DNA of 43,770 nucleotides from IMG/VR virus record IMGVR_UViG_3300045988_064273. One strand, written 5' to 3'. How positions within the stretch are numbered: the stretch's first letter is position 1; each line of letters opens with the position of its first letter. Under the pieces are notes generated by a model. The model was not told the DNA's origin, searched no databases, and saw nothing but the letters and a program-made list of their open reading frames with translations. Both the position numbers and the translations under genes were made by a program. Origin of the DNA: a virus. Below, in pieces: positions 1 to 43,770 of this stretch.

Positions 1-52
1 ATCAACGCCTTTTTGTTCTGCCGCAAAGGTTCGAATCCCTTACGGCGTGCCA
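1..52 (+). tRNA. 3' portion of a tRNA(-like) gene (T arm, acceptor 3' strand, G discriminator, CCA); the 5' part lies outside the window
   Basis: AAAGG-TTCGAAT-CCCTT T arm, then ACGGCGT, G and CCA ending at nt 52. The anticodon arm could not be folded from nt 1-24, so isotype is unknown. Confidence 0.55.
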
Positions 53-55
53 AAA
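1..55. repeat. attL core: left copy of the perfect 55-bp direct repeat
   Basis: Identical to nt 43716-43770 (ATCAACGCCTTTTTGTTCTGCCGCAAAGGTTCGAATCCCTTACGGCGTGCCAAAA). Confidence 0.9.
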
Positions 56-8072: not shown

Positions 8073-8107
8073 AAGGCTTTTCCTCCTTTTTCGCTTCTTG
8101 ATTTCAG

Positions 8108-8145
8108 CATAACAAAAGAAGGCAGGGCTTATTAAGCCCCACCTT
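8108..8145 (-). terminator. Rho-independent terminator after the giant gene
   Basis: - strand AAGGTGGGGCTT-aat-AAGCCCTGCCTT (12 bp including 2 G-U pairs) followed by CTTTTGTTAT. Confidence 0.65.
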
Positions 8146-8163
8146 CGCATGTTTTTTAACTTT
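8133..8163 (-). repeat. Late-junction element, copy a (AAAGTTAAAAAA-CATGCG-AAGGTGGGGCTTA)
   Basis: Shares an A-tract, 6 nt and AAGGTGGGGCT(G/T)A with 23019-23050 and 27232-27262. Confidence 0.6.
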
Positions 8164-11100
8164 CGTCGTTCTCTTTGCGCTTATAATATTCCTGCGCATG
8201 GTCGATTATCCCCTGCGCCGGGTTTGAACTCTTATAGGCCGCCATTTGCCAATCGTAAACCTTGTCGTACTCGTTGTTGACCTCGTACTTGGCGATTTGG
8301 TCTGCGTATTTGTATACATAACTGAGCATGTATGCCTTTTCGGCATCGGATGCGCGAGAATATGCGCTGCTGTTTATTATCTTTTTTGCCAGATCATAAG
8401 AGGTTCGTCCCCTGACCGTTGCATACTTCACATATTCCTCAGCCGTCAAAAATTCGCCGTTGATTTTTGTTTTTACAGCCGCGCGACCGGGATATACGCC
8501 GGTTTCGCCCAGATCATAAAGCCGTTTGAGCTCGCCGTCTATCTCGGTGCTGCGCTCCTTCTTGACGTATGCCGGATTTACAAAGTTGTTGAGCACCCTC
8601 TCAAACAGGTTGCCGGTTTCCTCTGTACGTCCCCATGCGTCAATGTACGGTATCTGGCTGAAATCATAAAACGGTATCTTGTTGGCGATCTTGCCCCACA
8701 TATATTGCAGCTCTGAGCCGACATTGCTGTTGCGGTCAATATACGTTGTTTCTCGCTGATTTTCTCCAAACGCTCTTTCGGCCTGCCCGAACAGCGTCGG
8801 GAAATACTGTGATATGTAGTTTGTCGCCATGCTCGTTACGATTTTGAACGAACCCTGTCCTTGCTTTATGTAGGCAAGGTTATCAAACAGATCGTTGACG
8901 CTTTGAAGCATTGACATTTCAAACATCGGCGTGCTGAGGCTCATGACGGAACTCATAAGGTTCTGAACAAAGCCGTTATCCTCGCTTTTGCCGCTGAGCG
9001 AATTATACAGTTCAACGCCCACGAATAGCGGCATGCTTTCCGGCGCGAGCCAGTCAAGCGTGATGCTTAGACCGCCTATGTTAAGCGCATAGTTTTGACT
9101 TCCGCCCAGCTCGTCAAACTTGTTTTGTTTATCGTCGTCTCCGGGACTGCCGCTGAATAATCCCCACGATGCCAGAAGAATACCCAATCCAACAAGCGCA
9201 GTGCCAGTCAGCCCGGCTGAAACGTCGTCGATAAACTGTGCCGGTGACATTCCGTTTTCTACATCGCCGTTTACATACGCCTTGACTTTCTTCGTGTCAA
9301 CGGCGAGCGACTTTATAAGCCCTACGGGCGAGTATTCCACCGCTCTCACGAGTATGTTTGCCGGTGTTTTTTTGAACGGCAAAACACCCTCTATCAGCGC
9401 GGAAGCGATCTTGTTATCGACCTTGCCGAGCCTGCTGACCATTGCCGAAAATCTGTTTGTGTCGCGGTAAGTCGCTTTCTGGGCTTCCTTTACCGCAACG
9501 GTCTGAGCTTTTATTATCGTGCTTTCGGGTACCTTGCCGGTGTTGAGCTGTTCGGCGGTTATGCCGTTTGCCTTGTACCATTTCGCGAGCGCGTTGGCGT
9601 ATGCAGGTTTACAAAACCATGCGTCCTCCGCGTCAAGCAGGTTTGAATTGCCCTTGCGTGCCGCCTCAAGGATTTTGGTTTTGTAAATCGTCCTTTTCTT
9701 GTCTATGCCCTGGAATGTATCGACATACTTGCCGCCCGAGAGTATAGTCTCCTGCATCGCTTCATAATCGGTCATTGCATACTTTATAAGTGCCACGTCA
9801 TTTGCGTTATTGCGGTTGAGCATGGCTTTGCTGCGCTCTATGCCTCCGTTCACTTTGCTGTCGGCGACATTTTCAAGGCCGTATGCTATGGTGTTTTTGA
9901 CTGCCCTGACCGGCACGAAAAATGCGTTGCCCACGATGTTTCTGACATGTGTACGAGGATTGCCCAGCATTGCGAGGTATCTGAAATTGTTGAGCTTTTC
10001 ATACCATGTCGCGTCTATCTGCTGTGCTACGCTCTGCTCGATTTTCGCCCATGCGGTCTTTATGCCATCCTCGTCGCCGCTTCTGAGTGCTTTACCGTAC
10101 TCGTCATACAGCACCTTGTCAACGTGTATATCCGCTTTGTTGTCCTTGTATTTCTCGTTAAGGTCTTCCTCTATAGTCTCAACGGACTTTGCGGCAAGAT
10201 ACAGTTTGCATTCGGGAGAGAGCTTGTTGAGTATGCGCATCGCCTGCAAAGACTGCGCCGTATTCGTCGAGTTTTTCACCATAAGTGAAGCAATATCCAG
10301 CGCGGTTGCATAATCTCCGCTGTTGACGGCGTTATTGTACAGAGCAATACCCATAACGGTATTGTCCTTCGATACCTTACCGGCATTTATCTGTGCCTTG
10401 TAATCGGCAAGCGCCTGTTCCCAGCCGTTAGCCTCTATCGTGATCTCGGCTTTTTTGAGCGCTGCCTCGTCGGAATAGGCTATGTGTGAGAATTTGCCCT
10501 GTGCCGCGTCCTCGCGTAGTGCGTCGGAAAACTCTGCCGGGGTAACGCCGCTGTTTGCGAGTGTGGAAACATGCTTGCTCGTGAGCTTGCCGTTCAGATC
10601 TTCCTTGGGTATCTCCTGCGGCGCTCTGTGCTGCTGCTCGGCAAGGTTTGCTTCCTGCTCTCGGCTTATCGGATGCAGCGCGTTGTTGCCCTTGCCCTGA
10701 GCCTCAGTTACCCAGCGCTCGCCTCTTGTTTCCTCGCCCGTGAACTCTGCCGAAGCCGCGCCCATGCCTTCGGGCAGCGAATTTTCTGCCGTTCTATCCT
10801 TTACCCTCGTAAGGACATTGTCCAAAGCCTTGATATTGACATAATCGCTGAGTTTTCTGTGTTCCTCTGCATACTTTCTGCTAAGCAGGGTAAAACGATT
10901 TCGGGCTGTCGCTATGGCGTTTTTGTCACCGCTGCTCTCTGCCGTCAACACTTCCTGACGCGCCGCGTCGAGCTTTTCGGCAATGCCGCTGACCTTGTCA
11001 TACTGGCGCTTATAGTCCTTTATAAGGCCGCGCTCGTTCTCGTTTGCTGCGTCCTCGTTTGTCGCCTGAGCAAGCATGGTTTCATTCTGCCGCCGCAGCT

Positions 11101-14100
11101 CGGTAATGCTCTCCGGCTCTCGGGAAAAATGCGCATCCGGCACGTCATTTGCGATCTTCATTCGGGCTGCATCGTCTCCGGCTCTGTATTCTTCGACGGC
11201 ATTTATTCCTGCTTCTTTAAGTGCCTTGCGCAGCGTATCCGACGATGTGTCGGGGATAATGACCTTGCGTATCTCGTCGAAGCCGACCACGCGTTCAGGC
11301 TTTGCCTCGAAGATGTTGACCGGCATATTATTAACGTCAAACAGCAGCGCAACTATATCGCTCGCCATTTTATCGGTAAGCGGATAGTTATACTTCTTGA
11401 AAAGCGCTTTCACGTTCGCGGGGCTAACATATTTAAGCTCCGTTGCCTCCATAAACACTTCGCCTATAGAGTCCAATTCCATAAGCTCGTTACTGTAGCC
11501 GCTGTGGGGAACGAGGTTATAAATGTCGTGCATGAGCTCGGAAAGCCTGCTGTCAAGCGCATCGGATATTTGGCTTGCTTCCTCCGCTGTCAGGTGCTTC
11601 AGGCGTCCTTCAAGCTTGTGCATATCTTCGACGCTCTTGAAGCGCTCGGCAGTACCTGCACGCAGACTTTTAACGCCGTGGAAGCCCATAACGTTTCGTG
11701 AGTTTCCGTCGCCCTGCGAAGCCATTGCCTTTACTATGCCGTCAAGTGTATTCGGATAATGCGTAGCCTTGAAGCTTCGTCTATTTCCGCTTGAAGTGTA
11801 ATAATCTTTGTTGTTATAAAAACCGCTGTCCTTTACTGCGTCGCCGTACAGGTCATTGAGCCACTTAATATATTCGCCGCTGTCAACGGCTTTTCTTATA
11901 GCAATGTTTGTCGCGTCAATATCGACTTCGGTTTTTCGGGTCTCAGCACCATCCTTGAGATATTTACGCGCATTGGTTGCTTCCTTGATAAGCTCTGCCG
12001 GTTTCATTGCATCAACTACGGATTTTGCCGTTTTCGCATCAATTCCGTCTTTGGTGTAATACTGCTCGAACGCCGCTTTAAGCGCATCTCCGTGCTTTGC
12101 AAACCATGCCTTTCGCGCAGCGAATGGAGCTTCATTATGTTTTGCAGCCATGTCGTTGAGAACATCCGCGCCGAGCGTGTTTATCAGCGCATCATATACC
12201 TCGATCTGATTATCCGTAAGCCGCGTTATCGTTTCGGTTTTCACCGATTCAACAGGCGTTCTGCCGGTGTCAGCAAGGTATATCTGCATCATCCGCGTGT
12301 CATCGGCAAATTTATCTATTAGCCCCTCCACGCCGCCGTATTTCGTGAGTGTGTCATCAAGGTAATTGGCAGACTCATATAACGGACTCACAAAATCATG
12401 ACCATGTTTTTTCTCAAGCTCGTAATATTTGCGTCGTATTCTCTGAGCCGCCTTTTCGTTTGCCTCGTATTCCATGCGCGGGAAAAGCGGAGTCCATGCA
12501 TCTGCTGAGTAAACGGTGTTGCGCCTGTCAAACTTCGGGTCAACTGTTTCCTTGCCGAAAACGACGGTGATATTGCCGAAATTCGTGTGCGGTATATCGC
12601 TTTTTGTTATTGCGATACTCGGCATCGGAAAACCGCCGAGTTTGAGCGTTTTCAGAAGCTTTGTCTCGTCAAGATTGTGCAGCGCGATAAGATTTTTCTT
12701 CTGCTCTATCGGCGCTTCCATGGAAAATTTCTTGACAGCGGCATCAGCAAATGATACACTACGGATGAGACCAAACTTGGTTCCCCCGAACGGCGTAGAG
12801 CGCCCTAAGGCATTGAACCATGCTTTGGTTTCTTTTTTATTCTCTCCGAGGTAAAGGATATTGCTGTCGTTTAAAAGTTTATCTAAATTGTGAGAGCGTG
12901 AGCCCACACTTCTTATTTTGTTAACAAGCGTAATGCTGTTACGCCTCTTTGTAGAATTAACGCGCAATGCAACTACTATAGGGTTACCATTCGCATCAAA
13001 TACCTGACCAAAAACCATAACTGTATTGTCATATGATTCTGATATTGCAATAGGGTGCTGCAAAATCTCAGGTATTTGTTTAATAACAGATTTCGTGATT
13101 TCGCCTTTTTCAAGAAGCTGTTTTGCCGCCTTGCTTTGGTCGAACCAAATATCTGTATTTGGTATTCCTACTTTCAACAGCGGGTCAGAAACTCCGCCGA
13201 CTCTGAATGCACCGCCATGGTCTTTGCCGTCCCACTGGTCTATCTGTCTGGCAAAATACTTATCTTCTGCTTGCCGCGAGAACATAACCCCGCTCTTCGG
13301 CGGTGCTCTGCCTTTGTTCGCAGTCTCGGCGGTGTGCTTGCGGAAGCTCTCCTGTACCTTGCCGTAGTTTGCGCTGTCGTGCTCCGTTCCGGCAAAGATG
13401 TTTATCTTGCCCAGCGCGTCACAGCACATTTCCTCGAACGCCTCGGCCTCGCTTATCGTGTCGCCGTATGCGTGTCTGTAGACCTCAACAGCGCTGTTAA
13501 GCTCTTTCTCCGAGAGGTCTGAAAGCATAGCGCTGCGCAGCTCGTCAAGGCTTATATCGCCCTGTGCGATTGCCGCGTGCCCCATCTCGTGGCGCATTAT
13601 CTGCTCTGCGGATATGTCGGGATGGTCTGAACGCACCATAACGGTTTTGCTCTCGGTATCGACCATGCCTCTGAACTCGCCGCCGCTGTCCTTGATATTG
13701 CCGCCCTCGAAATATGTGACGTTATAGCCGTAGCTTTTTGCAAGCTCACGGCCTTTTTTCATGCTCTCGGTGTCCTCGCCGGAGTAGTAGACGTTTTCCT
13801 GCTCTACGCCGTTATAGACTACTTTTTGCTCAGTTTTGCCTTGAGCTGCGCTATAACCGCTTTGTCTGCCGCTATCTGTTCCGGCGTAAGCTTCGACTGT
13901 GCCTCTTTCCACTGAGGGTATTTGTCCTTCGGTATTCTGACCGTTAAGCCGTTGGCCGCTGTCGCGTAGACGTACTCCATTATTGTTTACCTCCTGTGTG
14001 TTTATCTGGTTGTTTACCTGTGTGCTTACATTATCACCCTGCGCCGCCGCATTGTCAACCGCCGCCTGAGTTGTAGATGCACCCATGTTATAGGCTATCT

Positions 14101-15994
14101 CCGCCTGTGCGCGGTTCAGAACGGGCACTTTGGTGAGCGACTCTTTGTTCGCGCCCTGCTGCCCCATCTGATACACAGCATCAAACGCCATTTCAAACGC
14201 CTCGGGAGACTCGACGGGATTTAAATTGTACACTCTGCTCACAAACTCAGGCGTTGCATCTATCTTTGCCGCAACATTGTTTATGCTCTTGCTTACAGCT
14301 TCATTATTTGAAACGTTTGTGTTAACAGGCGCGGACATCTCCGAGCGTTGAGCAACATAATTCCTCAACTCGGATAACTGCTGTTCTCTGTTCAGCGCAG
14401 CATGCGGCAACGCCGGGCTTTCCTTATTGAGTTGTGTTTCCGGCGCCGACTGAACAGCAGTACCCTCATTTACCTGCGCTTTCTCGTTAGCTTGTGCAAG
14501 CCTATAAAGCTCGTTGCCGCTAAGCTGTTTGCCGTTATTTAGTTTTTCGTCGTATTTCCTTGCAAGCTCATAGCTTTTAGTGCCTCGTTCGCTTTCCAGT
14601 CCTTCGTCAACTAACTCTCGCTGAGAATTGCCGTATAATCTTTGCCCGGTTTCTCCGCGCTGCTTTGCTCTGTATGCCGCATTTATGCCGGTTGTAGGGA
14701 GACCGAGCAAAGTCGAAACGACCGCCGCGCCGGTAGCTTCCTCAAGCGCCGCCTTTGGATTGATTATAGAGTTTTCATCGTTTGCGTCATACAGCGGCAC
14801 GTCAGAGTATATACTCTTTAATCCTCTGCCCAAAATGCCCTGTATGATTTCCTCGCTTGCTTCTTCCCCGATGCTCTTAGCGTAGTTGAGAAGCAGACTT
14901 TTGTCGCCCTTATTAACAGCTTTTTTCACCCATTCGGGCAACTTCTGCAAGCCGCCAAGTTCGGAGACGCCGCCAAGTTCAGTAACCGCATTTCCTGCGC
15001 CATTCAGCGCAGCATAAACAAGCGCCTGCAAGTCATCCGCACCGTCTTGTTTAGCCTCGTCATAGCTTGAACCAAATGACGAGCCAAATATAACTTGCGC
15101 ATCCGGGCGCGTCGCAAACTGCTTTATCGCGTTCTGAGCTATAGCTCCGGTCTGGCTGAGTTTTGAGGCAGCCTGCCCAATCCGCGCAGCATTAGCAAGC
15201 GCGGCAGTGTCGACAGCAGTTGCAAGACCGCCGCCCATAAGAGTTGACGCCATCATTGCCGCCGCTTCGGAGGTCGCCGTGCTGTACTTATAAAGGGGGT
15301 TATCTGCATACGCAGCGTCGCGCTTTTGGCGGTATTCTATTTCTTTCTCACCGAGTTTATTAAAGGCTTTGATAGGGTTATCTTTAAAATTCAAGCCTTT
15401 AATTCCTAATGCATTATCCCCTGCAGCCTCTGCTATGCGGTCGCCGCCAAACATATACCAAAGCTCTTGCAAAGGGCCTCCGTCCTCGTCACCGAGGCTG
15501 GTAACAACATCAGCAGTGGAAACCAAGCTTTTGCTGAAATCGGTTAGGCCTACGTCAATGCCTCTGAGTATCTTTTTATACCACTCAATATCGCCTGCCG
15601 ATATCGCGTCGCTGCCTTTGGTGAGCTTTTCACCGCCTCCGGCCTGTTGCAGATATGCGTATCCGGGATTGTTGCGCTTAACTGCATCGCCATCCCACAC
15701 GCTGATATAGCCGTTGCCCTTGCCGGTTTCAATTTTCGAAGCCGCAGCTTTGCCTTTCGTTCCATCGCCGTATACTTTGCTATATACATATCCGGGATTG
15801 TTGCGCAAAAGTGCTTTTGACTTCTGCTCATCATCATAGGTTTTTGCTGCCGCACCGCTTTTTATTCTTGCAATATACTCACTGCGCCAATCTGAATTGG
15901 TGCTCTTGCTTTTTTCGCTGCTTGCATTGTCACCAACCCAGTTTTCATTAGCTTTCAGTTTCGCAATATATTTTTTTATGCTATTTGAAGCCAT
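8156..15994 (-). CDS. Giant multidomain virion protein (2612 aa) with a zincin HEMGH motif, probably a polyvalent ejected/internal protein
   Basis: One uninterrupted ORF. HEMGH is encoded at 13577-13591. TM segment GLTGTALVGLGILLASWGLF lies near nt 9150-9220. NNPGY(V/A)Y occurs twice at the N-terminus. Confidence 0.85.
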   Translation of the reverse strand: MASNSIKKYIAKLKANENWVGDNASSEKSKSTNSDWRSEYIARIKSGAAAKTYDDEQKSKALLRNNPGYVYSKVYGDGTKGKAAASKIETGKGNGYISVWDGDAVKRNNPGYAYLQQAGGGEKLTKGSDAISAGDIEWYKKILRGIDVGLTDFSKSLVSTADVVTSLGDEDGGPLQELWYMFGGDRIAEAAGDNALGIKGLNFKDNPIKAFNKLGEKEIEYRQKRDAAYADNPLYKYSTATSEAAAMMASTLMGGGLATAVDTAALANAARIGQAASKLSQTGAIAQNAIKQFATRPDAQVIFGSSFGSSYDEAKQDGADDLQALVYAALNGAGNAVTELGGVSELGGLQKLPEWVKKAVNKGDKSLLLNYAKSIGEEASEEIIQGILGRGLKSIYSDVPLYDANDENSIINPKAALEEATGAAVVSTLLGLPTTGINAAYRAKQRGETGQRLYGNSQRELVDEGLESERGTKSYELARKYDEKLNNGKQLSGNELYRLAQANEKAQVNEGTAVQSAPETQLNKESPALPHAALNREQQLSELRNYVAQRSEMSAPVNTNVSNNEAVSKSINNVAAKIDATPEFVSRVYNLNPVESPEAFEMAFDAVYQMGQQGANKESLTKVPVLNRAQAEIAYNMGASTTQAAVDNAAAQGDNVSTQVNNQINTQEVNNNGVRLRDSGQRLNGQNTEGQIPSVERGTVEAYAGTDSGRQSGYSAAQGKTEQKVVYNGVEQENVYYSGEDTESMKKGRELAKSYGYNVTYFEGGNIKDSGGEFRGMVDTESKTVMVRSDHPDISAEQIMRHEMGHAAIAQGDISLDELRSAMLSDLSEKELNSAVEVYRHAYGDTISEAEAFEEMCCDALGKINIFAGTEHDSANYGKVQESFRKHTAETANKGRAPPKSGVMFSRQAEDKYFARQIDQWDGKDHGGAFRVGGVSDPLLKVGIPNTDIWFDQSKAAKQLLEKGEITKSVIKQIPEILQHPIAISESYDNTVMVFGQVFDANGNPIVVALRVNSTKRRNSITLVNKIRSVGSRSHNLDKLLNDSNILYLGENKKETKAWFNALGRSTPFGGTKFGLIRSVSFADAAVKKFSMEAPIEQKKNLIALHNLDETKLLKTLKLGGFPMPSIAITKSDIPHTNFGNITVVFGKETVDPKFDRRNTVYSADAWTPLFPRMEYEANEKAAQRIRRKYYELEKKHGHDFVSPLYESANYLDDTLTKYGGVEGLIDKFADDTRMMQIYLADTGRTPVESVKTETITRLTDNQIEVYDALINTLGADVLNDMAAKHNEAPFAARKAWFAKHGDALKAAFEQYYTKDGIDAKTAKSVVDAMKPAELIKEATNARKYLKDGAETRKTEVDIDATNIAIRKAVDSGEYIKWLNDLYGDAVKDSGFYNNKDYYTSSGNRRSFKATHYPNTLDGIVKAMASQGDGNSRNVMGFHGVKSLRAGTAERFKSVEDMHKLEGRLKHLTAEEASQISDALDSRLSELMHDIYNLVPHSGYSNELMELDSIGEVFMEATELKYVSPANVKALFKKYNYPLTDKMASDIVALLFDVNNMPVNIFEAKPERVVGFDEIRKVIIPDTSSDTLRKALKEAGINAVEEYRAGDDAARMKIANDVPDAHFSREPESITELRRQNETMLAQATNEDAANENERGLIKDYKRQYDKVSGIAEKLDAARQEVLTAESSGDKNAIATARNRFTLLSRKYAEEHRKLSDYVNIKALDNVLTRVKDRTAENSLPEGMGAASAEFTGEETRGERWVTEAQGKGNNALHPISREQEANLAEQQHRAPQEIPKEDLNGKLTSKHVSTLANSGVTPAEFSDALREDAAQGKFSHIAYSDEAALKKAEITIEANGWEQALADYKAQINAGKVSKDNTVMGIALYNNAVNSGDYATALDIASLMVKNSTNTAQSLQAMRILNKLSPECKLYLAAKSVETIEEDLNEKYKDNKADIHVDKVLYDEYGKALRSGDEDGIKTAWAKIEQSVAQQIDATWYEKLNNFRYLAMLGNPRTHVRNIVGNAFFVPVRAVKNTIAYGLENVADSKVNGGIERSKAMLNRNNANDVALIKYAMTDYEAMQETILSGGKYVDTFQGIDKKRTIYKTKILEAARKGNSNLLDAEDAWFCKPAYANALAKWYKANGITAEQLNTGKVPESTIIKAQTVAVKEAQKATYRDTNRFSAMVSRLGKVDNKIASALIEGVLPFKKTPANILVRAVEYSPVGLIKSLAVDTKKVKAYVNGDVENGMSPAQFIDDVSAGLTGTALVGLGILLASWGLFSGSPGDDDKQNKFDELGGSQNYALNIGGLSITLDWLAPESMPLFVGVELYNSLSGKSEDNGFVQNLMSSVMSLSTPMFEMSMLQSVNDLFDNLAYIKQGQGSFKIVTSMATNYISQYFPTLFGQAERAFGENQRETTYIDRNSNVGSELQYMWGKIANKIPFYDFSQIPYIDAWGRTEETGNLFERVLNNFVNPAYVKKERSTEIDGELKRLYDLGETGVYPGRAAVKTKINGEFLTAEEYVKYATVRGRTSYDLAKKIINSSAYSRASDAEKAYMLSYVYKYADQIAKYEVNNEYDKVYDWQMAAYKSSNPAQGIIDHAQEYYKRKENDES

Positions 15995-21744: not shown

Positions 21745-22758
21745 TTAAAACTGCCCGGGATATATCTTTTCACCCGATCTAATCCGGGCTTTCAACGCCT
21801 CTCTCTGTTCCCTCGTGGCGTTTCTGTAATCAAACGTCTGAATGGAAGCGTTAGAGGACTTGGGAACGCCGCCCTCACTCGGGCGCGATCTATTCGACTG
21901 CACAGCATTTGACACCTGCTGCACCGATGCTTTCAGCGCTGCCTGCCGTATGCTTTCCTTTATTTCATCACGATGCACAAGCTCATATGCATCTTCGAGG
22001 GAAAACATCAGGTCGGGCGCGGTCAAGCGTCGGAATGTAGGGTTGTCCAGCTCTTTCCGCAAATCAAAGTTGGGGTATTTCTTCTGAAGCTCAACGGCCT
22101 GCGCGTTCATCTTGCTCAGATGCTCCATAAGCTTCTGCTCGTTGATAAACTGCTGTTTCTGCGCTTCTGCTGCTCTTGCCACAGCCTCGGAGCGCTCGAG
22201 CTGCTTTGCTACCTCGGTCGATACACCCAATTCCATCGCACGGTCTTCGTAATACTCGTCATCATCCGCGACCGCTTTTGCGATTGCGTCATAATCTCCC
22301 GAGTCTACGCCGTACTTTTTGGATAGCAGCTGCAGCGCCGGAGCAAGCTTCTCAAGCCCCTCGGCGTCCGCCTTGTACTTTGTCTTTGCCGACGAGACTA
22401 CTTTCTGCATCTCCCGGTTATAGTCGGGGTCTGCCATGATTTCATCCCATGTAAGCCGCTTTGCTGTATCTTTAGTCTCTGCTGCCTCTATGGCTTCCTT
22501 TGGCGCAGCGGCGGCCTGCGCATCGGCTTTAGGCTGATTAACAGCCTTGCCATATTTCGCCCGTCCGAGTTTTTCCTTAGGCACTCCAAGCTCTGCGAGC
22601 CTGTCAGCCGTGGTTTTCGGTGCTGTCTGTTCGGCGGCAACAGACACATTAACGCCCGTGTTCTGCCCGGCGGCGGCAGATGTTTCGCCCGAAGTGGCTG
22701 CACCGCCATCGCCGGTACCGTCCGCGAATAGCTGCAACCAACTGAATTTGTTGTGCAT
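21745..22758 (-). CDS. Scaffolding protein (337 aa)
   Basis: Lies between the protease and capsid genes. Ala/Glu/Lys-rich and helical, with the same WLQLFAD N-terminal motif as the capsid. Confidence 0.7.
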   Translation of the reverse strand: MHNKFSWLQLFADGTGDGGAATSGETSAAAGQNTGVNVSVAAEQTAPKTTADRLAELGVPKEKLGRAKYGKAVNQPKADAQAAAAPKEAIEAAETKDTAKRLTWDEIMADPDYNREMQKVVSSAKTKYKADAEGLEKLAPALQLLSKKYGVDSGDYDAIAKAVADDDEYYEDRAMELGVSTEVAKQLERSEAVARAAEAQKQQFINEQKLMEHLSKMNAQAVELQKKYPNFDLRKELDNPTFRRLTAPDLMFSLEDAYELVHRDEIKESIRQAALKASVQQVSNAVQSNRSRPSEGGVPKSSNASIQTFDYRNATREQREALKARIRSGEKIYPGQF

Positions 22759-22803
22759 TTACATGCCTCCTATTTATTTGCCCGTAGGTGGGCGAGCCCG
22801 TCG

Positions 22804-22870
22804 TACCGCCTGCAGGGCTCGAACCTGCATCTCTATCTCTCCGAGCGTTTTACCGTTAAACTAAGGCGAT
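22804..22870 (-). ncRNA. tRNA-like element (67 nt) with acceptor, D and T arms but no foldable anticodon arm
   Basis: ATCGCCT/AGGCGGT acceptor, GTTT-AACGGTA-AAAC D arm, and a perfect GCAGG-TTCGAGC-CCTGC T arm. The middle 17 nt (CTCGGAGAGATAGAGAT) give no 5-bp stem. Confidence 0.55.
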
Positions 22871-22904
22871 ATACAAAAGGGGCGGAGAAGGGGGGACTCC
22901 GCCC
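22871..22904 (-). terminator. Rho-independent terminator between the Prp gene and the tRNA-like element
   Basis: - strand GGGCGGAG-tcccccctt-CTCCGCCC followed by CTTTTGTATAT. Confidence 0.75.
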
Positions 22905-23014
22905 GTAAGAAAGGAGATGTAGCAGACTATTACAGCCGCCGCCTGCCAGGGCGACATCTTAAAGGAGGTGAACTTGCTGTCTCATGCAACCCACGTTTTC
23001 AGCATAGCATTTAC

Positions 23015-23359
23015 TTATGCTTTGCTTTCAGCCCCACCTTGCGCACTTTTTTTAGTTTCTGTGAAAATTTTTATGTATTCCGGGTATTCCTGCATCAGCA
23101 ACACAAAGCCCTTGACTATTACCGACATTTCAACGACCGCCACAGGGTCATATTCAGTCAGCTTTATTCGCGCTTTGCCGTCGGATATATCAATTTCCGT
23201 GATATCTTTGGAACTTTCCTGCAAAATAGCCGCTGCCGTGCGCACAAGGATTGTCGCAGCCGCGCATATCAAATCCTCGCCTTTGGGCGCAGACTGCGCA
23301 TGCCCTTCGATTTTTAATTCAAACGTGCTGCCGGTGCTGTTTACGCATACATTTATCAT
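23015..23359 (-). CDS. Prp-like (DUF464, ribosomal-processing cysteine protease family) protease
   Basis: ELKIEGHAQSAPKGEDLICAAATIL matches the GHA...G.D.(V/I)CA signature. 114 aa, between portal and scaffold. Confidence 0.8.
   Translation of the reverse strand: MINVCVNSTGSTFELKIEGHAQSAPKGEDLICAAATILVRTAAAILQESSKDITEIDISDGKARIKLTEYDPVAVVEMSVIVKGFVLLMQEYPEYIKIFTETKKSAQGGAESKA
23019..23050 (-). repeat. Late-junction element, copy b (GAAACTAAAAAAA-GTGCGC-AAGGTGGGGCTGA)
   Basis: Matches 27232-27262 with 1 mismatch and 1 indel over ~31 nt. Lies in the last codons of the Prp gene. Confidence 0.7.
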
Positions 23360-25287
23360 GTCGTTGCATGTCCTCCATCGGGCATTGCCGCCTCGCGCGT
23401 CTTTGCCCGGGCGTTAGACACCTGCGCATGTTCGCGCTTTGCCGGGTCTTCTGCAAGCTGTATATTCGCCTGCGGTGTGCTGATCTGCACGTTGGCCTGC
23501 TGTGCTATAGCCTGTATCTGCGCAAGCGACTGCGCATCACCGCATTTGGCCGCAAGCAGTGCCGCGACTTGCAGCACCGTGTTAAATCGGTCAAACAGGG
23601 TGCCGTTTTGCTTGATGGTTTTGCGGACATCGTCGATGCTGTCAAAATCCATCATCGTAAGGCATGCAAGCGCCTGGTCTGTCTGCTGCGGATTGAAAAA
23701 GCCAAGGTTATAAAACTGCAAAGCCAATTCATTATTTGACATCTTGGTGTATGCCGTGCGCTTCTGCGGAACGACATTGATATCAAACTCCGGCACACGC
23801 TGCCCGATATCGTATCCGGCAAACATCTGTGTCTGCGGCTTTATGTGCTCGTTGGAATAGCTTAAGAACAATTCCTCGCCGCCGTCGCCCAGAATGCGGA
23901 ACTGGCGCGGCGCATCGTAAAACTGCCTTATCAGCTCTATGACAAGATAGTTTAATTCGCTGTATGCCCTGTAGCTTGCCTTGGTGCTGTCTCTGCTGCC
24001 TTTGCCGCTGGCTTCCTGCAATGCTGCTATTGCGCTTGCAGCCGTTACTCCGCTGCTTGTCGTGCCTGTTGCGGTTTCTGTGTTGCCGCTGGTTTCGCGC
24101 AATTCGTTGATGCTAAGCTGCAGCATGCTGATATAGTTGCCGTCAAGGTTATCGTGCGTAACAGGCTTTAGGTTATCGTCGTTTAAGCTGCCTTCGACGT
24201 TTATGATGGTTTCATTCAGGTTCGTAAACTGTTCAACGTTAACGCCGCAGTTGGCTTTCTTAAAGTACCTGGGTTTTGCGCCGACCATTGCATTTTCCAC
24301 ATACGCCGTTTTCATCAGGTCAATTTCAGTCTGCGGCGCTTTGCACAGGTCTACATAGCCGTATCCGCACGGGCTGCCTTCAATGGGAAACAGCGTGTCA
24401 AACACATACGGGTATTTGCTGTGGTCATACCAGCCGGTCATTGCACGGTCAGGGTCATTTTCCGTCGCATAAAGCACCGTGCCCGGAACAAACAGTATGT
24501 AGTGCAGCACACCGTTTTTGTGATAGTACGCACTGATAACAGGCACTTTGTCCGTAGTGTCTACATGGTCATCGTATCTGTATTTGCTGGTTATAAAATC
24601 ATGCGGTATATTCTTGCCCTCCGGCAGCTCAGCCGGGAACATGGCTCGGACTTCGGTTTCGTCCTGAAAATCGACCTCAAAGAAATACTTTGACTGCTGT
24701 ATATCCTCGACTCCCGGCTCCCAGAATAGATTAAGGATGTTGCACTTGCGCACATCGATATCGCCCAAGCCGTTCATTTTGTTCTTATCCCATATGACCT
24801 TGTACACGCCTGTGCCGGTCTTTAGCTTTGACCACATGACTTTGCTATAGGTAGTCTCAAACTGGTTCTTTTCCAGCACAACAGGGATTATTTTAGACAG
24901 CATAGCCGCCTCCACCTTATCTCCCTGCTCCCTCGGCAGTATGTTAGGCTCAGGGTAGGCGTCCATTGCGTCGGCGTGTTTGTTGGTGATTACGTTATGC
25001 AGCCAGCCGCTTTTGCTACGAAAGCCCGGCTTTGCGTGGCCGTCCTTGTCTTCTTCAACATCGTTTCGCAGCTTCCACCAGTTTTCCGATGCGATGATAC
25101 GGCTATCGACCGACTTCTTCCCGGCGCGATATTTGTTTAGTATCTGCATCAAATCCTGTATCTGCTGTTCCCCAATGGGTTTTATGCCAAGCATCTGCGC
25201 CGCAGTTTCAACGCTGCCAAGCTCGGGCGCTTTGCTGCCGTCTGCGCGTATAGTGTCCTTAGTGATATCCATTTGCTTTGTATCCAT
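23356..25287 (-). CDS. Portal protein (643 aa)
   Basis: Immediately downstream of and overlapping TerL. Size and position are typical of portals. Confidence 0.75.
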   Translation of the reverse strand: MDTKQMDITKDTIRADGSKAPELGSVETAAQMLGIKPIGEQQIQDLMQILNKYRAGKKSVDSRIIASENWWKLRNDVEEDKDGHAKPGFRSKSGWLHNVITNKHADAMDAYPEPNILPREQGDKVEAAMLSKIIPVVLEKNQFETTYSKVMWSKLKTGTGVYKVIWDKNKMNGLGDIDVRKCNILNLFWEPGVEDIQQSKYFFEVDFQDETEVRAMFPAELPEGKNIPHDFITSKYRYDDHVDTTDKVPVISAYYHKNGVLHYILFVPGTVLYATENDPDRAMTGWYDHSKYPYVFDTLFPIEGSPCGYGYVDLCKAPQTEIDLMKTAYVENAMVGAKPRYFKKANCGVNVEQFTNLNETIINVEGSLNDDNLKPVTHDNLDGNYISMLQLSINELRETSGNTETATGTTSSGVTAASAIAALQEASGKGSRDSTKASYRAYSELNYLVIELIRQFYDAPRQFRILGDGGEELFLSYSNEHIKPQTQMFAGYDIGQRVPEFDINVVPQKRTAYTKMSNNELALQFYNLGFFNPQQTDQALACLTMMDFDSIDDVRKTIKQNGTLFDRFNTVLQVAALLAAKCGDAQSLAQIQAIAQQANVQISTPQANIQLAEDPAKREHAQVSNARAKTREAAMPDGGHATT

Positions 25288-27228: not shown

Positions 27229-27243
27229 TAATCAGCCCCACCT
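27215..27243 (-). promoter_or_regulatory. Hairpin enclosing the terS SD and first ATG
   Basis: - strand AGGTGGGGCTG-attaatg-CAGCGCCACCT (10 of 11 bp). ATG 27228 sits in the loop and the SD in the 5' arm. Confidence 0.5.
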
Positions 27244-27262
27244 TGCACACTTTTTTAGTTTT
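27232..27262 (-). repeat. Late-junction element, copy c (AAAACTAAAAAA-GTGTGC-AAGGTGGGGCTGA)
   Basis: See 23019-23050. Lies immediately upstream of terS. Confidence 0.7.
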
Positions 27263-27347
27263 ATATGCAAATCGCATAAAATCCATGTCGATGATTTGTG
27301 CATTTTGCTGTTTTAATATTTTTTATGTCTAATCGGCTAAAAAGTGC

Positions 27348-33262: not shown

Positions 33263-33781
33263 TTAGTACACACTCCTAAACCAATTCTGAATACCGTCGC
33301 CGGTGAAAAAGACAGCGTTCTTATCAAGCTCCCTTGCCACCGCCGCGCCCTGCTTTTCCATGCTCCATCGCGCGAGTACATCTTCTGCAACGGCATAGAG
33401 GCTATCCCACACCGGGAAATCAGCCGAATAGCCGTAAAACTGCCCCGGTTGCGACACAACGCCGATTATGCTGTCAGGGAACCGCGCATCGTCAACGCGG
33501 TTCAAGACACACCATACGCACTGTTGCTGATTTAATAGGGTGCAGCCACGAGCCTCGCCGTATAGCATCTGCGCAAGGGCTATCACGTCGGCCTCGGTAA
33601 AGTACATCTCGTACTCAGGCTCTGCCACTTCCACTACGCACAGGCCGTGCGTATCAACCTCGGGCGGCACACCGTCCGCATCGGCCTTGTTGCCCCCTTT
33701 GTCAAGGGCAAGCAGTACCATGACTATCAGCGCCAGCAGCGCCGCGCACACCTGGGCTATGATGATCGTGTATTTATTCAT
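33263..33781 (-). CDS. SleB-type cell-wall hydrolase (Hydrolase_2) with an N-terminal TM anchor
   Basis: LAQMLYGEARGC...CVWCVLNRVDDARFPDSIIGVVSQPGQF. Confidence 0.75.
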   Translation of the reverse strand: MNKYTIIIAQVCAALLALIVMVLLALDKGGNKADADGVPPEVDTHGLCVVEVAEPEYEMYFTEADVIALAQMLYGEARGCTLLNQQQCVWCVLNRVDDARFPDSIIGVVSQPGQFYGYSADFPVWDSLYAVAEDVLARWSMEKQGAAVARELDKNAVFFTGDGIQNWFRSVY

Positions 33782-34490
33782 CGGCTACCTCGACAAATTC
33801 GCCGTCCGCAAGCTTATACCATGTATCAGCCTTTATTATTTCGCCGTCGATCTGTGCTGATTTAACGCAAACAGGGGCACAGCGCTGTTTATCGCTGTCA
33901 TATGCCCACTCCGCAAGTGTTATCCAGTTGCCGACTGCTCCTTTTATAATGCTGTTGAGGCCTATAGCAGCGCCTACGCTGGTGTTGCCCGAAATATCGA
34001 TCTTCGCGAAGTTGCCTGAGCTGCCTATCTGCGCGGAGTCGCCTGAGCTGCCTATCTGCGCGAAGCCGCCTGAGCTGCCTATCTGCGCGAAGCCGCCTGA
34101 GCTGCCTATCTGCGCGGAGCCGCCTGTTTCGACCTTATCACTCGGCATATTTTTTATCGTTTTCTCGTATACGAAATCTATACAGGCTTTGACGAAACCG
34201 GCAAAACCAAGCTTTACGCCGATTTTGATAGTGCTTGTGGCGAATTTTCGCCCATCATCGGTAACAGGCTCGTCGATAGCTTCGACAGTCGTAAATTCGC
34301 TGAACTTACCGTCGTTACGCACAAGCGGGTAATGATTCAACACATCAAACGGATTAACGCAGTAGTGCGTAACCCCGCCGACGCATACGCCGTGCCCGTT
34401 TTTCTTGTAGGTTTTGCCTTCTTCGTACTGATAACCCCTGCATACGAGTCCGGGGTCATAGGCTTTGTAGCCGTGTTTGTTGTCTGTCAT
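33774..34490 (-). CDS. Hypothetical protein (238 aa) with a conserved phage N-domain and a 9-aa tandem repeat (AQIGSSGxF)
   Basis: GYKAYDPGLVCRGYQYEEGKTY..HYCVNPFDVLNHYP, followed by the repeat array. Confidence 0.6.
   Translation of the reverse strand: MTDNKHGYKAYDPGLVCRGYQYEEGKTYKKNGHGVCVGGVTHYCVNPFDVLNHYPLVRNDGKFSEFTTVEAIDEPVTDDGRKFATSTIKIGVKLGFAGFVKACIDFVYEKTIKNMPSDKVETGGSAQIGSSGGFAQIGSSGGFAQIGSSGDSAQIGSSGNFAKIDISGNTSVGAAIGLNSIIKGAVGNWITLAEWAYDSDKQRCAPVCVKSAQIDGEIIKADTWYKLADGEFVEVADE
34024..34131. repeat. Four 27-bp tandem repeats inside 33774-34490
   Basis: GCCTGAGCTGCCTATCTGCGCG(G/A)AG(T/C)C x4, with units 2 and 3 identical. Confidence 0.9.
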
Positions 34491-43715: not shown

Positions 43716-43770
43716 ATCAACGCCTTTTTGTTCTGCCGCAAAGGTTCGAATCCCTTACGGCGTGCCAAAA
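43716..43770. repeat. attR core: right copy of the 55-bp direct repeat (displaced tRNA 3' fragment)
   Basis: Identical to nt 1-55. The upstream sequence is phage DNA and does not complete a tRNA. Confidence 0.9.

What the first reader, a model, noticed from the sequence alone, without database searches (positions are those of the whole stretch)
22804..22904. Anticodon-less tRNA-like element immediately after an intra-operon terminator, upstream of scaffold
On the - strand, 22870 down to 22804 folds as follows:
- a 7-bp acceptor stem (ATCGCCT/AGGCGGT, one G-U pair)
- U8
- a D arm GTTT-AACGGTA-AAAC with the GG dinucleotide
- a perfect T arm GCAGG-TTCGAGC-CCTGC
- discriminator A

Only 17 nt (CTCGGAGAGATAGAGAT) occupy the space where the anticodon arm plus variable loop should be. 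I tested every 5-bp stem with a 7-nt loop register and none pairs.

The element sits directly 3' of a good terminator (22871-22904) and 45 nt before the scaffold start. Possible roles are an RNase P/Z processing signal that defines or stabilises the scaffold-capsid mRNA, a decayed phage tRNA, or a relic secondary attP, since the T arm plus acceptor is exactly what tRNA-targeting integrases recognise.
Basis: seen in the sequence. Interest (0 to 1): 0.65.

Follow-up and report, generated by a model that had tools for sequence, protein, structure and literature searches.

The report
Anticodon-less tRNA mimic in phage operon
A temperate gut-Clostridia phage keeps a tRNA-shaped RNA with no usable anticodon arm between its head-protease and scaffold genes. 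It is conserved far better than the genes around it and most likely serves as a cutting signal for the host's tRNA-processing enzymes.

Summary
Window 22870→22804 (- strand) is the only Rfam tRNA hit in the window (45.9 bits, cut-off 29). It has a 7-bp acceptor stem, a D arm with GG and a canonical T arm. Only 17 nt (2 bp plus a 9-nt loop) stand where 22 nt should be. ARAGORN finds nothing at default settings.

- **Origin:** in related Oscillospiraceae/Clostridia phages the same slot, about 45-55 nt before the scaffold start, holds genuine tRNAs with at least eight different anticodons. Other relatives carry tRNA-likes with truncated or expanded anticodon arms, or 43-62-nt acceptor-plus-T-arm remnants.
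- **Selection:** it is not a decaying pseudogene. Between lineages whose scaffold 4-fold sites are only 52-55% identical, the element is 94-97% identical. Substitutions cluster in the middle loop and stems change compensatorily.
- **attP:** the candidate attP lies beside the integrase, elsewhere in the genome.

Best reading (inferred, not shown): a tRNA-derived "t-element"/mascRNA-like signal for host RNase P and RNase Z that punctuates the late transcript between Prp and scaffold. It is flanked by a newly noticed pseudoknot motif and a conserved 5' hairpin. I rate it a new variant of a known kind. RNA-end mapping would decide.

The parts
22804..22870 (-). 67-nt tRNA-like element. Acceptor 22870-22864 pairs with 22810-22805. 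U8-A9 follow, then D arm GUUU-AACGGUA-AAAC and G26 (22845). A 17-nt stub (22844-22828) stands in place of the anticodon arm plus variable loop. T arm GCAGG-UUCGAGC-CCUGC is 22827-22811. Discriminator A is 22804. No CCA is encoded (CGA follows).
   Evidence: Rfam tRNA 45.9 bits. ARAGORN negative. 98.3% of cells paired and 6 covarying pairs in 13 variants. 94-97% identity across lineages with diverged flanks.
22871..22904 (-). GC-rich hairpin (GGGCGGAG / UCCCCCCUU / CUCCGCCC) followed by CUUUUGUAU, ending at the predicted RNase P site (between 22871 and 22870). It is terminator-like. I read it as a 3'-end-protecting structure or a leaky terminator.
   Evidence: -16.5 kcal/mol, z=-4.3. Not called by the terminator scan. 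A hairpin or pseudoknot is present at this position in relatives, but the U-tract is not conserved.
22905..22920 (-). Second pyrimidine tract, ACAUCUCCUUUCUUAC, resembling an anti-Shine-Dalgarno sequence.
   Evidence: Read from sequence. CU-rich tracts recur at this place in relatives.
22922..22955 (-). Predicted H-type pseudoknot: S1 GUCGCC/GGCGGC, L1 CUG, S2 GCAGGC/GUCUGC, L3 UGUAAUA.
   Evidence: The motif occurs in 54 of 147 dereplicated relatives against 4-10 of 147 shuffles. Six of 7 S2 pairs covary, 97.6% of cells paired. The sequences were picked by a pairing scanner, which biases the paired percentage.
22961..22970 (-). CACCUCCUUU tract, identical to the 3' tail of 16S rRNA (anti-SD mimic), 5 nt before the pseudoknot.
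   Evidence: Read from sequence. Conserved upstream of the pseudoknot in relatives. The MFE and centroid folds of the 256-nt spacer pair it with the scaffold SD, but the z-score is not significant.
22776..22799 (-). Conserved leader motif GGGCUC-[GCCC]-ACCUAC-[GGGC]-AAAU. It is a 5'-proximal hairpin of the predicted processed scaffold mRNA and starts 5 nt after the discriminator.
   Evidence: Present in nearly all relatives, with or without a tRNA. Stem sequences differ while staying complementary: GCCGC/GCGGC, GCCAA/UUGGC, GUCC/GGAC, GCCAC/GUGGC, ACCGC/GCGGU, GUGG/CCAC. 91-98% identical where flanking genes are 59-83%.
22766..22771 (-). Shine-Dalgarno sequence AGGAGG of the scaffold-like gene (ATG at 22758).
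21745..22758 (-). Scaffold-like gene (337 aa, phrog_13908) with an L27-like N-terminal LQLFA motif.
23015..23359 (-). Prp-family cysteine protease gene, immediately upstream of the spacer.
   Evidence: PF04327 1.7e-14, phrog_4478.

Best explanation
The element is a former phage tRNA gene. The slot tRNAs it most resembles are tRNA-Thr(UGU), though only weakly. It has lost about 5 nt of its anticodon arm, so it cannot decode. It has been kept under purifying selection as an L-shaped tRNA mimic.

**Proposed mechanism (inferred):**
1. It is transcribed as part of the late head-gene transcript (terminase - portal - Prp - element - scaffold - capsid).
2. Host RNase P recognises the acceptor/T-arm stack and the D/T-loop elbow. 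It cuts between U22871 and A22870.
3. The upstream RNA is left ending in the GC hairpin and pseudoknot.
4. No CCA is encoded, so RNase Z can cut after A22804. The scaffold-capsid mRNA then starts 5 nt before a conserved 5' hairpin and its SD.
5. The cut may also separate the SD from the upstream anti-SD-like tracts.

The element would thus punctuate the operon, in the manner of mitochondrial tRNAs and t-elements or of mascRNA. This uncouples the fate of the low-copy genes from the high-copy scaffold and capsid genes.

**Shown:** the tRNA-like fold, the lack of an anticodon arm, homology of position with real tRNAs, and strong conservation with covariation.

**Inferred:** transcription through the element, cleavage by RNase P and RNase Z, and the effect on mRNA stability or translation.
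For: **Fold.** Rfam tRNA 45.9 bits, with the anticodon arm reduced to 2 bp plus 9 nt.

**Same slot in relatives.**
- Genuine tRNAs end 46-55 nt before the scaffold ATG, with anticodons tgt, ttt, cca, cgg, gct, gat, ttg and agg.
- Near-identical flanks carry either tRNA-Pro or tRNA-Trp.
- An acceptor stem plus T arm ends 35-70 nt before the ATG in 66 of 147 dereplicated relatives. Shuffles give a mean of 7.

**What varies across lineages is the anticodon region:**
- truncated in the window clade, L028/L029 and L100 (Rfam 43-49 bits);
- expanded to 13-18 nt in L185 and L242;
- absent in the 43-62-nt forms.

**Register check.** Four of 6 minimal forms still encode CCA right after the discriminator, against a background trinucleotide frequency of 0.9%. 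U occupies position -1 in 49 of 66.

**Selection.**
- Element 94-97% and leader 91-98% identical between window and L041/L097/L164. Over the same comparisons Prp is 59-60%, scaffold 74-76% and scaffold 4-fold sites 52-55%.
- Twelve columns vary among 10 variants: 2 of 36 stem columns, both pair-preserving, against 10 of 32 unpaired (p=0.009).
- Six of the 9 middle-loop columns vary (p=0.0005).
- Six pairs show double-sided changes and 98.3% of cells are paired.

**CCA.** All 49 tRNA-likes of 60 nt or more lack encoded CCA, whereas 10 of 11 real slot tRNAs have it. In Bacillota, CCA-less precursors are the RNase Z substrates (established knowledge).

**Elbow recognition.** RNase P and RNase Z read the elbow and measure to the cleavage site. 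Tolerance of an altered anticodon region is documented for mascRNA/menRNA (PMC11693755) and t-elements (PMC1920247).

**No phage-encoded help.** No sigma-70-like promoter was found in 22500-23400. No phage RNA-processing enzyme was found among the 29 ORFs I scanned.
Against: - No RNA data exist. Neither transcription through the element nor any cleavage is shown.
- About half of the relatives have no tRNA or tRNA-like element in the slot, yet they keep the leader hairpin. The element is therefore not indispensable for this operon design.
- Local conservation could partly reflect recent recombination of a small module rather than selection. The cassette-like exchange of tRNAs between identical flanks shows the slot recombines.
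- The sequence of the window-clade element is conserved beyond what a bare cleavage signal would need. That leaves room for a trans-acting function.
- The 43-62-nt 'minimal' elements are not called tRNA by Rfam. They rest on my own scanner.
- The covariation set is small (13 sequences, related).
Confidence: 0.5

Rival explanations
1. The excised tRNA-like RNA is itself the product. It would be a stable, probably CCA-tailed small RNA acting in trans, for example as a decoy or ligand for a host factor that reads the acceptor/T-arm/elbow: CCA-adding enzyme, EF-Tu, a tRNA-modifying or tRNA-targeting defence enzyme, or a T-box. Processing would only be its biogenesis. This is compatible with the best explanation rather than exclusive of it.
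For: Sequence is conserved in loops, not only pairing: D loop AACGGUA, T loop UUCGAGC and the 3' part AGAGAU are invariant among 10 variants. mascRNA is a precedent for a processed tRNA-like RNA with its own activities (listing).
Against: Other clades keep very different sequences, or only a 43-nt acceptor-plus-T-arm stub, at the same place. That argues for a shape-only requirement. No partner is identifiable, and no relevant gene was found among the 29 ORFs scanned.
Confidence: 0.2
2. It is a tRNA pseudogene in neutral decay. Its apparent conservation comes from recent horizontal spread of a small DNA module among related phages.
For: A real tRNA sits at the same slot in relatives. The slot exchanges cassettes. 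The element lost both its anticodon arm and its CCA.
Against: Three separately diverged lineages (L041, L097, L098/L164) carry private substitutions that fall almost only in the middle loop or preserve pairing. More distant L028/L029 and L100 keep the fold through compensatory changes in the acceptor, D, T and mini stems. Independent lineages reduced the tRNA in different ways but always kept the acceptor and T arm.
Confidence: 0.12
3. It is a functional decoding tRNA with an unconventional short anticodon arm, for example the 'tRNA-Ser(aga)' fold that ARAGORN gives at relaxed thresholds.
For: ARAGORN -ps80 produces a cloverleaf with a 7-nt loop. L028/L029 have a 2-bp stem plus a 7-nt loop with U at the position of U33.
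Against: The forced fold has 2 mismatches in 5 pairs, lacks U33 and borrows bases from the D and T stems. The loop is the most variable part of the element: it is 9, 7 or 5 nt long and 6 of its 9 columns vary. An arm about 3 bp short cannot span the decoding centre and the peptidyl-transferase centre (established tRNA geometry). No CCA is encoded.
Confidence: 0.03
4. It is a relic or secondary attP for a tRNA-targeting integrase.
For: The T arm plus acceptor 3' strand is what such integrases usually share with their target. The phage encodes a tyrosine integrase.
Against: A candidate attP core (...GGTTCGAATCCCTTACGGCGTGCCA) lies 45 nt after the integrase gene. One contig shows it joined to what looks like non-phage DNA with a terminator-like hairpin. 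Its sequence differs from the element. The element lies 20 kb away inside the head operon. Its 5' acceptor strand covaries with the 3' strand, and its G-U pairs exist only on the gene strand. That is RNA-level, not DNA-level, selection.
Confidence: 0.02

Closest known systems
Plant mitochondrial t-elements (tRNA-like processing signals; Forner et al. 2007, PMC1920247)
   Same: Both are non-canonical cloverleaves that keep the acceptor stem and the GGTTCRANYCC T arm. Both lie next to protein-coding genes in a polycistronic context. The ends of t-elements coincide with mRNA 5'/3' ends made by RNase Z and RNase P. Real tRNAs and t-elements are interchangeable as punctuation.
   Different: The setting here is a bacteriophage of Bacillota, not an organelle. 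Cleavage has not been mapped. The element is flanked by a conserved pseudoknot and a conserved 5' hairpin, which t-elements do not have.
mascRNA / menRNA at the 3' ends of MALAT1 and NEAT1_2 (PMC11693755)
   Same: Both are tRNA mimics with a preserved acceptor stem, T arm and GG/T-loop elbow and no anticodon function. In mascRNA, RNase P cleavage makes the 3' end of the upstream RNA, which a structure immediately upstream protects. RNase Z and CCA addition then finish the small RNA.
   Different: mascRNA is eukaryotic and nuclear, has a reduced D arm and a longer anticodon-equivalent stem, and has nothing functional downstream. Here the D arm is full, the anticodon arm is a 2-bp stub, and a highly expressed mRNA follows.
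tRNA punctuation of animal mitochondrial transcripts
   Same: tRNA-shaped units between coding regions define mRNA ends through RNase P and RNase Z.
   Different: Those units are working tRNAs. Here the decoding part is gone, and only one junction of the operon is punctuated.
Non-tRNA RNase P substrates of phages and bacteria (P1/P7 C4 antisense RNA, phi80 M3 RNA, tmRNA precursor, operon mRNAs; review PMC11143913)
   Same: These are bacterial RNase P cutting acceptor/T-arm-like structures in phage-encoded or messenger RNAs.
   Different: None of those listed is a tRNA-derived cloverleaf inside a head-gene operon. No evolutionary series from true tRNA to stub is described for them.
Theta (HDV-like) ribozymes next to tRNAs in gut phages (PMC10879173)
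   Same: Both are cis-acting RNA elements coupled to tRNA genes in Caudoviricetes of gut Bacillota or Bacteroidota. Theta ribozymes are postulated to process tRNA 3' trailers and time late gene expression.
   Different: Theta ribozymes cleave themselves and serve real suppressor tRNAs. No ribozyme family is detected here, and the tRNA itself is the degenerate part.
Ordinary phage-encoded tRNA genes
   Same: Same slot and same ancestry. The acceptor, D and T arms are canonical, and the Rfam score is above the gathering cut-off.
   Different: There is no 5-bp anticodon stem, no 7-nt loop with U33 and no encoded CCA. ARAGORN rejects it.

Membership tests
Canonical tRNA (Rfam RF00005) | Score at or above the family gathering threshold | tested here: met
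   45.9 bits against 29, full-length model match.
Canonical tRNA (Rfam RF00005) | 7-bp acceptor stem, D arm with G18-G19, T arm with a UUCRA loop | tested here: met
   cmscan alignment. Pairing is kept in 13 variants with compensatory changes.
Canonical tRNA (Rfam RF00005) | 5-bp anticodon stem with a 7-nt loop (U33, purine 37) presenting an anticodon | tested here: not met
   Only 2 bp plus 9 nt. ARAGORN default and -ps find nothing, and -ps80 forces a mismatched fold without U33. Loop length and sequence vary among relatives.
Canonical tRNA (Rfam RF00005) | 3' CCA (encoded or added) and aminoacylation | not testable with these tools
   CCA is not encoded; CGA follows the discriminator. Addition and charging need experiments.
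t-element / mascRNA-like tRNA-mimic processing signal | tRNA-like fold with intact acceptor stem, T arm and elbow but a non-canonical remainder | tested here: met
t-element / mascRNA-like tRNA-mimic processing signal | Embedded in sense orientation in a longer transcript next to a functional RNA | tested here: inconclusive
   It is on the same strand as Prp and scaffold, and G-U pairs exist only on that strand. No sigma-70-like promoter was found in the spacer. A terminator-like hairpin precedes it. No transcript data.
t-element / mascRNA-like tRNA-mimic processing signal | RNA ends that coincide with the element's 5' and 3' ends; cleavage by RNase P and RNase Z | not testable with these tools
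   Needs RNA-end mapping or in vitro cleavage.
t-element / mascRNA-like tRNA-mimic processing signal | Conservation above the neutral expectation | tested here: met
   94-97% identity against 52-55% at neighbouring 4-fold sites. Substitutions are concentrated in the loop.
Phage attP overlapping a tRNA 3' end | Adjacent to the integrase gene and identical to the 3' end of the host target tRNA | tested here: not met
   The element is 20 kb from the integrase. A different tRNA-3'-end-like core lies 45 nt after int, and one contig shows it joined to what looks like non-phage DNA. The host tRNA itself was not retrieved.
Intrinsic (Rho-independent) terminator, for 22871-22904 | GC-rich hairpin immediately followed by a U-tract | tested here: inconclusive
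   The hairpin is strong (-16.5 kcal/mol). The tail is CUUUUGUAU, a run of only four U's. The scan did not call it. The U-tract is missing in L028, L100 and L097.

The most novel reading that the evidence does not exclude
A widespread family of temperate phages of gut Oscillospiraceae/Clostridia uses a modular RNA cassette to punctuate and control its head-gene operon. The cassette is a 16S-3'-tail mimic, an H-type pseudoknot, an exchangeable tRNA or tRNA-derived t-element, and a 5' hairpin. [quoted passage not shown] This would be the first bacterial or phage counterpart of organellar t-elements and of mascRNA, and the excised mimic may be a small RNA with its own function.
Probability: 0.4. 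Interest if true: 0.75.

Novelty: new variant of a known kind. Interest (0 to 1): 0.6.

Why it matters
tRNA-shaped processing signals that no longer decode are established in organelles (t-elements, tRNA punctuation) and in vertebrate nuclei (mascRNA). I found no description of one in a phage structural operon.

- **Operon control.** If confirmed, it would show that phages exploit host tRNA-maturation enzymes to split a late operon into differently handled mRNAs. That would be a simple answer to how proteins needed in a few copies (terminase, portal) and in hundreds of copies (scaffold, capsid) come from one transcription unit.
- **An evolutionary series.** The family offers a natural series running from true tRNA through altered anticodon arm to a 43-nt stub. 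It is well suited to defining the minimal in vivo substrate of Bacillota RNase P and RNase Z.
- **Annotation.** Sub-threshold or 'pseudo' tRNA calls in phage genomes may be functional RNA elements.
- **Two unannotated motifs.** The flanking pseudoknot and leader hairpin are candidates for new RNA families.

Tried and rejected
- **GenBank phages:** a distant blastn of the 1.7-kb region found no match.
- **Other Rfam families:** an E-value search of the spacer gave only chance-level hits. No known ribozyme or leader family was found in the window or in 20 relatives.
- **Opposite-strand gene:** ORF 22753-22908 (+) covers the element. It is interrupted by stops or frame shifts in L097, L028 and L100. 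The SD-like AAAGGAGGTG on the + strand is not followed by a conserved ORF (read).
- **Thermodynamics alone:** the cloverleaf is not the MFE fold and its z-score is only -0.71. The 256-nt spacer gives z=-0.18. Energy does not support or refute the structure; the evidence is comparative.
- **Identity of the ancestral tRNA:** the closest slot tRNAs are Thr(UGU) at 38-40 of 55 compared positions. Others reach 33-38, so this is not decisive.
- **Window ends as att sites:** I first took the 55-nt identical ends for attL/attR. Contigs joining the integrase directly to the window's left-end genes show a circular assembly overlap. Rfam does not call the attP-like core a tRNA or tmRNA fragment.
- **Pseudoknot as an HDV-like ribozyme:** rejected, because it is too small and has no P3 or P4.
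- **Minimal elements:** Rfam did not call the minimal elements tested (L035, L037, L038, L043, L057, L058, L060, L130, L195, L201) as tRNA. I treat them as supportive only.
- **First attempts at two scans** timed out and were rerun.
Full report
**1. The observation**

On the - strand, 22870→22804 reads AUCGCCU UA GUUU AACGGUA AAAC G CUCGGAGAGAUAGAGAU GCAGG UUCGAGC CCUGC AGGCGGU A.

- Rfam's tRNA model matches it end to end at 45.9 bits, against a gathering score of 29, with E=9e-07. It is the only Rfam family hit in the 43.8-kb window.
- The alignment keeps the acceptor, D and T arms. It replaces the 17-nt anticodon arm by 2 bp plus 9 nt.
- ARAGORN reports nothing at default or slightly relaxed thresholds. 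At 80% it forces a 'tRNA-Ser(aga)'. That fold has two mismatches in the anticodon stem, no U33, a 3-bp D stem and a 4-bp T stem.
- The hairpin at 22871-22904 is strong (-16.5 kcal/mol, z=-4.3). Its tail, CUUUUGUAU, has a run of only four U's, and the consensus terminator scan did not call it.
- The element ends 45 nt before the ATG at 22758.

**2. Context**

The window is a circularly assembled temperate phage.
- Its first and last 55 nt are identical.
- Other contigs join the integrase gene directly to the window's left-end genes.

On the - strand lie small terminase, large terminase, a P22-like portal and a Prp cysteine protease (23015-23359). A 256-nt spacer follows. Then come a 337-aa protein of phrog_13908 and the major head protein.
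- I call the 337-aa protein scaffold-like from its position and from its N-terminus, MHNKFSWLQLFA/DG.
- That N-terminus resembles the L27 extension that Prp proteases remove. This rests on my own knowledge of the Prp/L27 and phage 80-alpha system and is an inference.

The other 20 ORFs I scanned are replication, recombination, methylase and lysis-type functions. No RNA-processing enzyme was found among them.

Relatives come from gut metagenomes and from MAGs named Oscillospiraceae, Faecousia, Clostridia and Eubacteriales. No GenBank phage is similar at the DNA level.

**3. The slot in relatives**

I collected scaffold homologues and took 147 dereplicated regions upstream of the scaffold start.
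- Seventeen of them carry a tRNA that ARAGORN accepts. Most of these end 46-55 nt before the ATG.
- The identities differ: Thr(tgt), Lys(ttt), Trp(cca), Pro(cgg), Ser(gct), Ile(gat), Gln(ttg) and Pro(agg), plus an Arg(tcg) further upstream.
- Phages with near-identical flanks carry either tRNA-Pro or tRNA-Trp, so the slot behaves like a cassette.

A simple scanner looked for a 7-bp acceptor stem closing directly onto a 5-bp/7-nt T arm.
- It finds such a structure ending 35-70 nt before the ATG in 66 of 147 regions.
- Shuffled sequences give a mean of 7.0 and a maximum of 12.

The non-canonical cases form a series.

| Form | Example loci | Feature |
|---|---|---|
| Truncated anticodon arm | window clade (67 nt), L028/L029 (65 nt), L100 (66 nt) | 2 bp + 9 nt; 2 bp + 7 nt; 3-4 bp + 5 nt; Rfam 43-49 bits |
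| Expanded anticodon region | L185, L242 | 13-18-nt 'anticodon loop' |
| No D arm | L037-L061 clade (62 nt) | T loop UGCAACU |
| Stubs | L201, L130, L035 (43-55 nt) | acceptor plus T arm only |

Rfam does not call the last two groups tRNA.

An independent check supports their register. Four of 6 stubs still encode CCA right after the discriminator, against a background trinucleotide frequency of 0.9%. U occupies position -1 in 49 of 66 elements.

About half of the relatives have no tRNA-like element. They carry an AU-rich hairpin, or only the pseudoknot, before the same leader.

**4. Selection, not decay**

The window was compared with the L041, L097 and L164 lineages.

| Region | Identity to window |
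|---|---|
| tRNA-like element | 94-97% |
| 45-nt leader | 91-98% |
| Prp | 59-60% |
| Upstream hairpin | 59-71% |
| Scaffold gene | 74-76% |
| Scaffold 4-fold degenerate sites (L041, L097) | 52-55% (Jukes-Cantor distance 0.7-0.8) |

Among the ten sequence variants of the 67-nt type, 12 columns vary.
- Two lie in the 36 stem columns, and both preserve pairing (U-G to C-G, C-G to U-G).
- Ten lie in the 32 unpaired columns (Fisher p=0.009).
- Six lie in the 9-nt middle loop (p=0.0005).

Adding L028, L029 and L100 gives a 13-sequence alignment.
- 98.3% of cells are paired, against 39-51% for slid partners.
- Six pairs have changes on both sides:
  - acceptor 1-72, A-U/G-C;
  - acceptor 6-67, C-G/U-A;
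  - two D-stem pairs;
  - T-stem 49-65;
  - mini-stem 28-42.

The set is small and its members are related, so this is supportive rather than conclusive.

G-U pairs occur only on the gene strand. An ORF on the opposite strand (22753-22908) is not preserved.

The pattern is that of a structured RNA whose decoding loop has become free to vary. Recent recombination of a small module could inflate the identity values. It does not explain where the substitutions fall or the compensatory changes.

**5. Mechanism**

The conserved parts are the acceptor/T-arm coaxial stack, G18-G19 and the UUCRA T loop. These are what RNase P and RNase Z recognise when they measure from the elbow to the cleavage site (PMC11693755; also textbook RNase P minihelix substrates, from my own knowledge).

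Real tRNAs in the same slot must be excised from the late transcript by these enzymes. Cleavage at this junction is therefore ancestral to the family.

- Ten of 11 real slot tRNAs encode CCA.
- All 49 tRNA-likes of 60 nt or more, including the window's (CGA), have lost it.
- In Bacillota, CCA-less precursors are the ones cut endonucleolytically by RNase Z directly after the discriminator (established knowledge).

I therefore propose the following steps, all inferred.
1. RNase P cuts between 22871 and 22870.
2. The Prp-side RNA is left ending in the hairpin and pseudoknot.
3. RNase Z cuts after 22804.
4. The scaffold-capsid mRNA then starts 5 nt before the conserved hairpin 22793-22780 and its SD.

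The nearest precedents are plant mitochondrial t-elements (PMC1920247), mitochondrial tRNA punctuation, and mascRNA/menRNA. Bacterial RNase P is already known to cut phage C4 and M3 RNAs and operon mRNAs (PMC11143913).

I give this mechanism about 0.5. That the element is a tRNA-derived, non-decoding, selectively maintained mimic I hold at about 0.85.

**6. Rivals**

- **Trans-acting small RNA (0.2).** This is compatible with processing and is favoured by the invariance of the loop sequences.
- **Neutral pseudogene spread by recombination (0.12).** The substitution pattern and the parallel reductions in other clades count against it.
- **Decoding tRNA with a short arm (0.03).** Geometry, the missing U33 and loop variability count against it.
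- **Relic attP (0.02).** A candidate attP lies 45 nt after the integrase gene. It reads ...GGTTCGAATCCCTTACGGCGTGCCA and is unrelated to the element. One contig (L249) shows it joined to what looks like non-phage DNA, followed by a terminator-like hairpin. Rfam does not call this core, and the host tRNA was not retrieved.

**7. Flanking motifs**

*Upstream pseudoknot and 16S-tail mimic.*
- A tract identical to the 16S rRNA 3' tail (CACCUCCUUU, 22970-22961) precedes a predicted H-type pseudoknot at 22955-22922. The pseudoknot has S1 GYCGCC/GGCGGC, L1 of 1-3 nt, a covarying S2 of 6-7 bp, and L3 of about 7 nt.
- The motif occurs in 54 of 147 relatives against 4-10 of 147 shuffles.
- Six of 7 S2 pairs covary. 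The scanner introduces ascertainment bias here.
- An exact-pattern scan of IMG/VR found the motif only upstream of scaffold homologues. Where a tRNA is present, the pseudoknot ends 4-10 nt before its 5' end.
- In the window, a second CU tract and the plain hairpin lie between the pseudoknot and the element.
- The MFE and centroid folds of the spacer pair CCUCCU with the scaffold SD. This suggests, without statistical support, that cleavage could free the SD.

*Downstream leader hairpin.*
- The GGGACUC-hairpin-AGAU leader is nearly universal in the family.
- Its stem sequences differ between relatives while staying complementary.

Neither motif matches an Rfam family.

**8. Novelty and verdict**

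Full-text searches found t-elements, mascRNA, RNase P model substrates and theta ribozymes beside phage tRNAs (PMC10879173). They found no report of a tRNA-derived processing mimic in a phage structural operon. The library lacks most subscription journals.

I classify the element as a new variant of a known kind and score interest at 0.6. The comparative evidence for a maintained, non-decoding tRNA mimic is strong, and the surrounding motif architecture is new. The biochemical mechanism is untested, and the principle is known elsewhere.

Noticed in passing
window 22922-22970 (-); relatives e.g. L176, L062, L217, L228-L247: A pyrimidine tract identical to the 16S rRNA 3' tail (CACCUCCUUU) is followed 4-6 nt later by a compact H-type pseudoknot (S1 GYCGCC/GGCGGC, covarying S2, L3 ~NUUAGUA). 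It occurs in 54 of 147 relatives against 4-10 of 147 shuffles. It sits immediately 5' of the tRNA slot and matches no Rfam family. Function unknown; possibly 3'-end protection or SD sequestration.
   Followed up: partly
window 22776-22799 (-); nearly all loci L001-L247 just before the scaffold SD: A conserved leader, RGGAYUC-[4-5-bp stem]-CCNNAWA-[stem]-AGAU, lies about 15 nt before the SD. Stem sequences differ between relatives but stay complementary. It is present even where no tRNA or tRNA-like element exists. It is a candidate 5' stabiliser or operator of the scaffold-capsid mRNA.
   Followed up: partly
L228-L247 (IMG/VR), e.g. L229 vs L234: Phages with near-identical pseudoknot and leader flanks carry either tRNA-Pro(cgg) or an odd tRNA-Trp(cca) in the slot, a cassette-like exchange. 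Across the family the slot holds at least eight anticodons.
   Followed up: partly
L185:1354-1439, L242:2675-2759, L201 (55-nt form): One lineage (acceptor GGAACAG/CUGUUCC) shows the opposite change. The anticodon 'loop' is expanded to 13-18 nt in L185 and L242, and in L201 the element is reduced to 55 nt with CCA retained.
   Followed up: partly
window 1-55 and 43716-43770; L249:4255-4320: The window's ends are an identical 55-nt overlap, meaning a circular assembly. The sequence there (...GGTTCGAATCCCTTACGGCGTGCCA), 45 nt after the integrase gene, looks like the 3' end of a tRNA. It is probably the attP core. L249 shows it joined to what looks like non-phage DNA, followed by a terminator-like hairpin. 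Rfam and ARAGORN do not call it.
   Followed up: partly
window 23028-23068 vs 27232-27272: A 41-nt direct repeat (83% identity) links the 3' end of the Prp gene with the region just upstream of the small-terminase start. On the - strand both contain AAAAAGTGYGCAAGGTGGGGCTGA. It may be a module boundary or a shared SD-containing sequence.
   Followed up: no
L041, L097, L098, L164, L100, directly after the Prp stop: These relatives have a textbook intrinsic terminator (GGGTGGAG...CTCCACCC + TTTTTT) right after Prp. The window clade lacks it. Transcription into the spacer may therefore be regulated differently between clades, or need antitermination.
   Followed up: no
window 21745-22758 (-), N-terminus; capsid N-terminus in L033: The scaffold-like protein starts MHNKFSWLQLFA/DG, and a relative's capsid protein has NLQLFA/E. 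These resemble the L27 N-terminal extension cleaved by Prp. That fits the phage-encoded Prp processing both proteins.
   Followed up: no
window 7097-7621 and 33987-34126: In-frame tandem repeats: 21-nt periodicity inside the 606-aa ORF 6330-8150 (-), and four 27-nt units inside ORF 33774-34490 (-).
   Followed up: no
window 8156-15994 (-): A single 2612-aa ORF lies downstream of the head genes in a P22-like-portal phage. It was not analysed.
   Followed up: no
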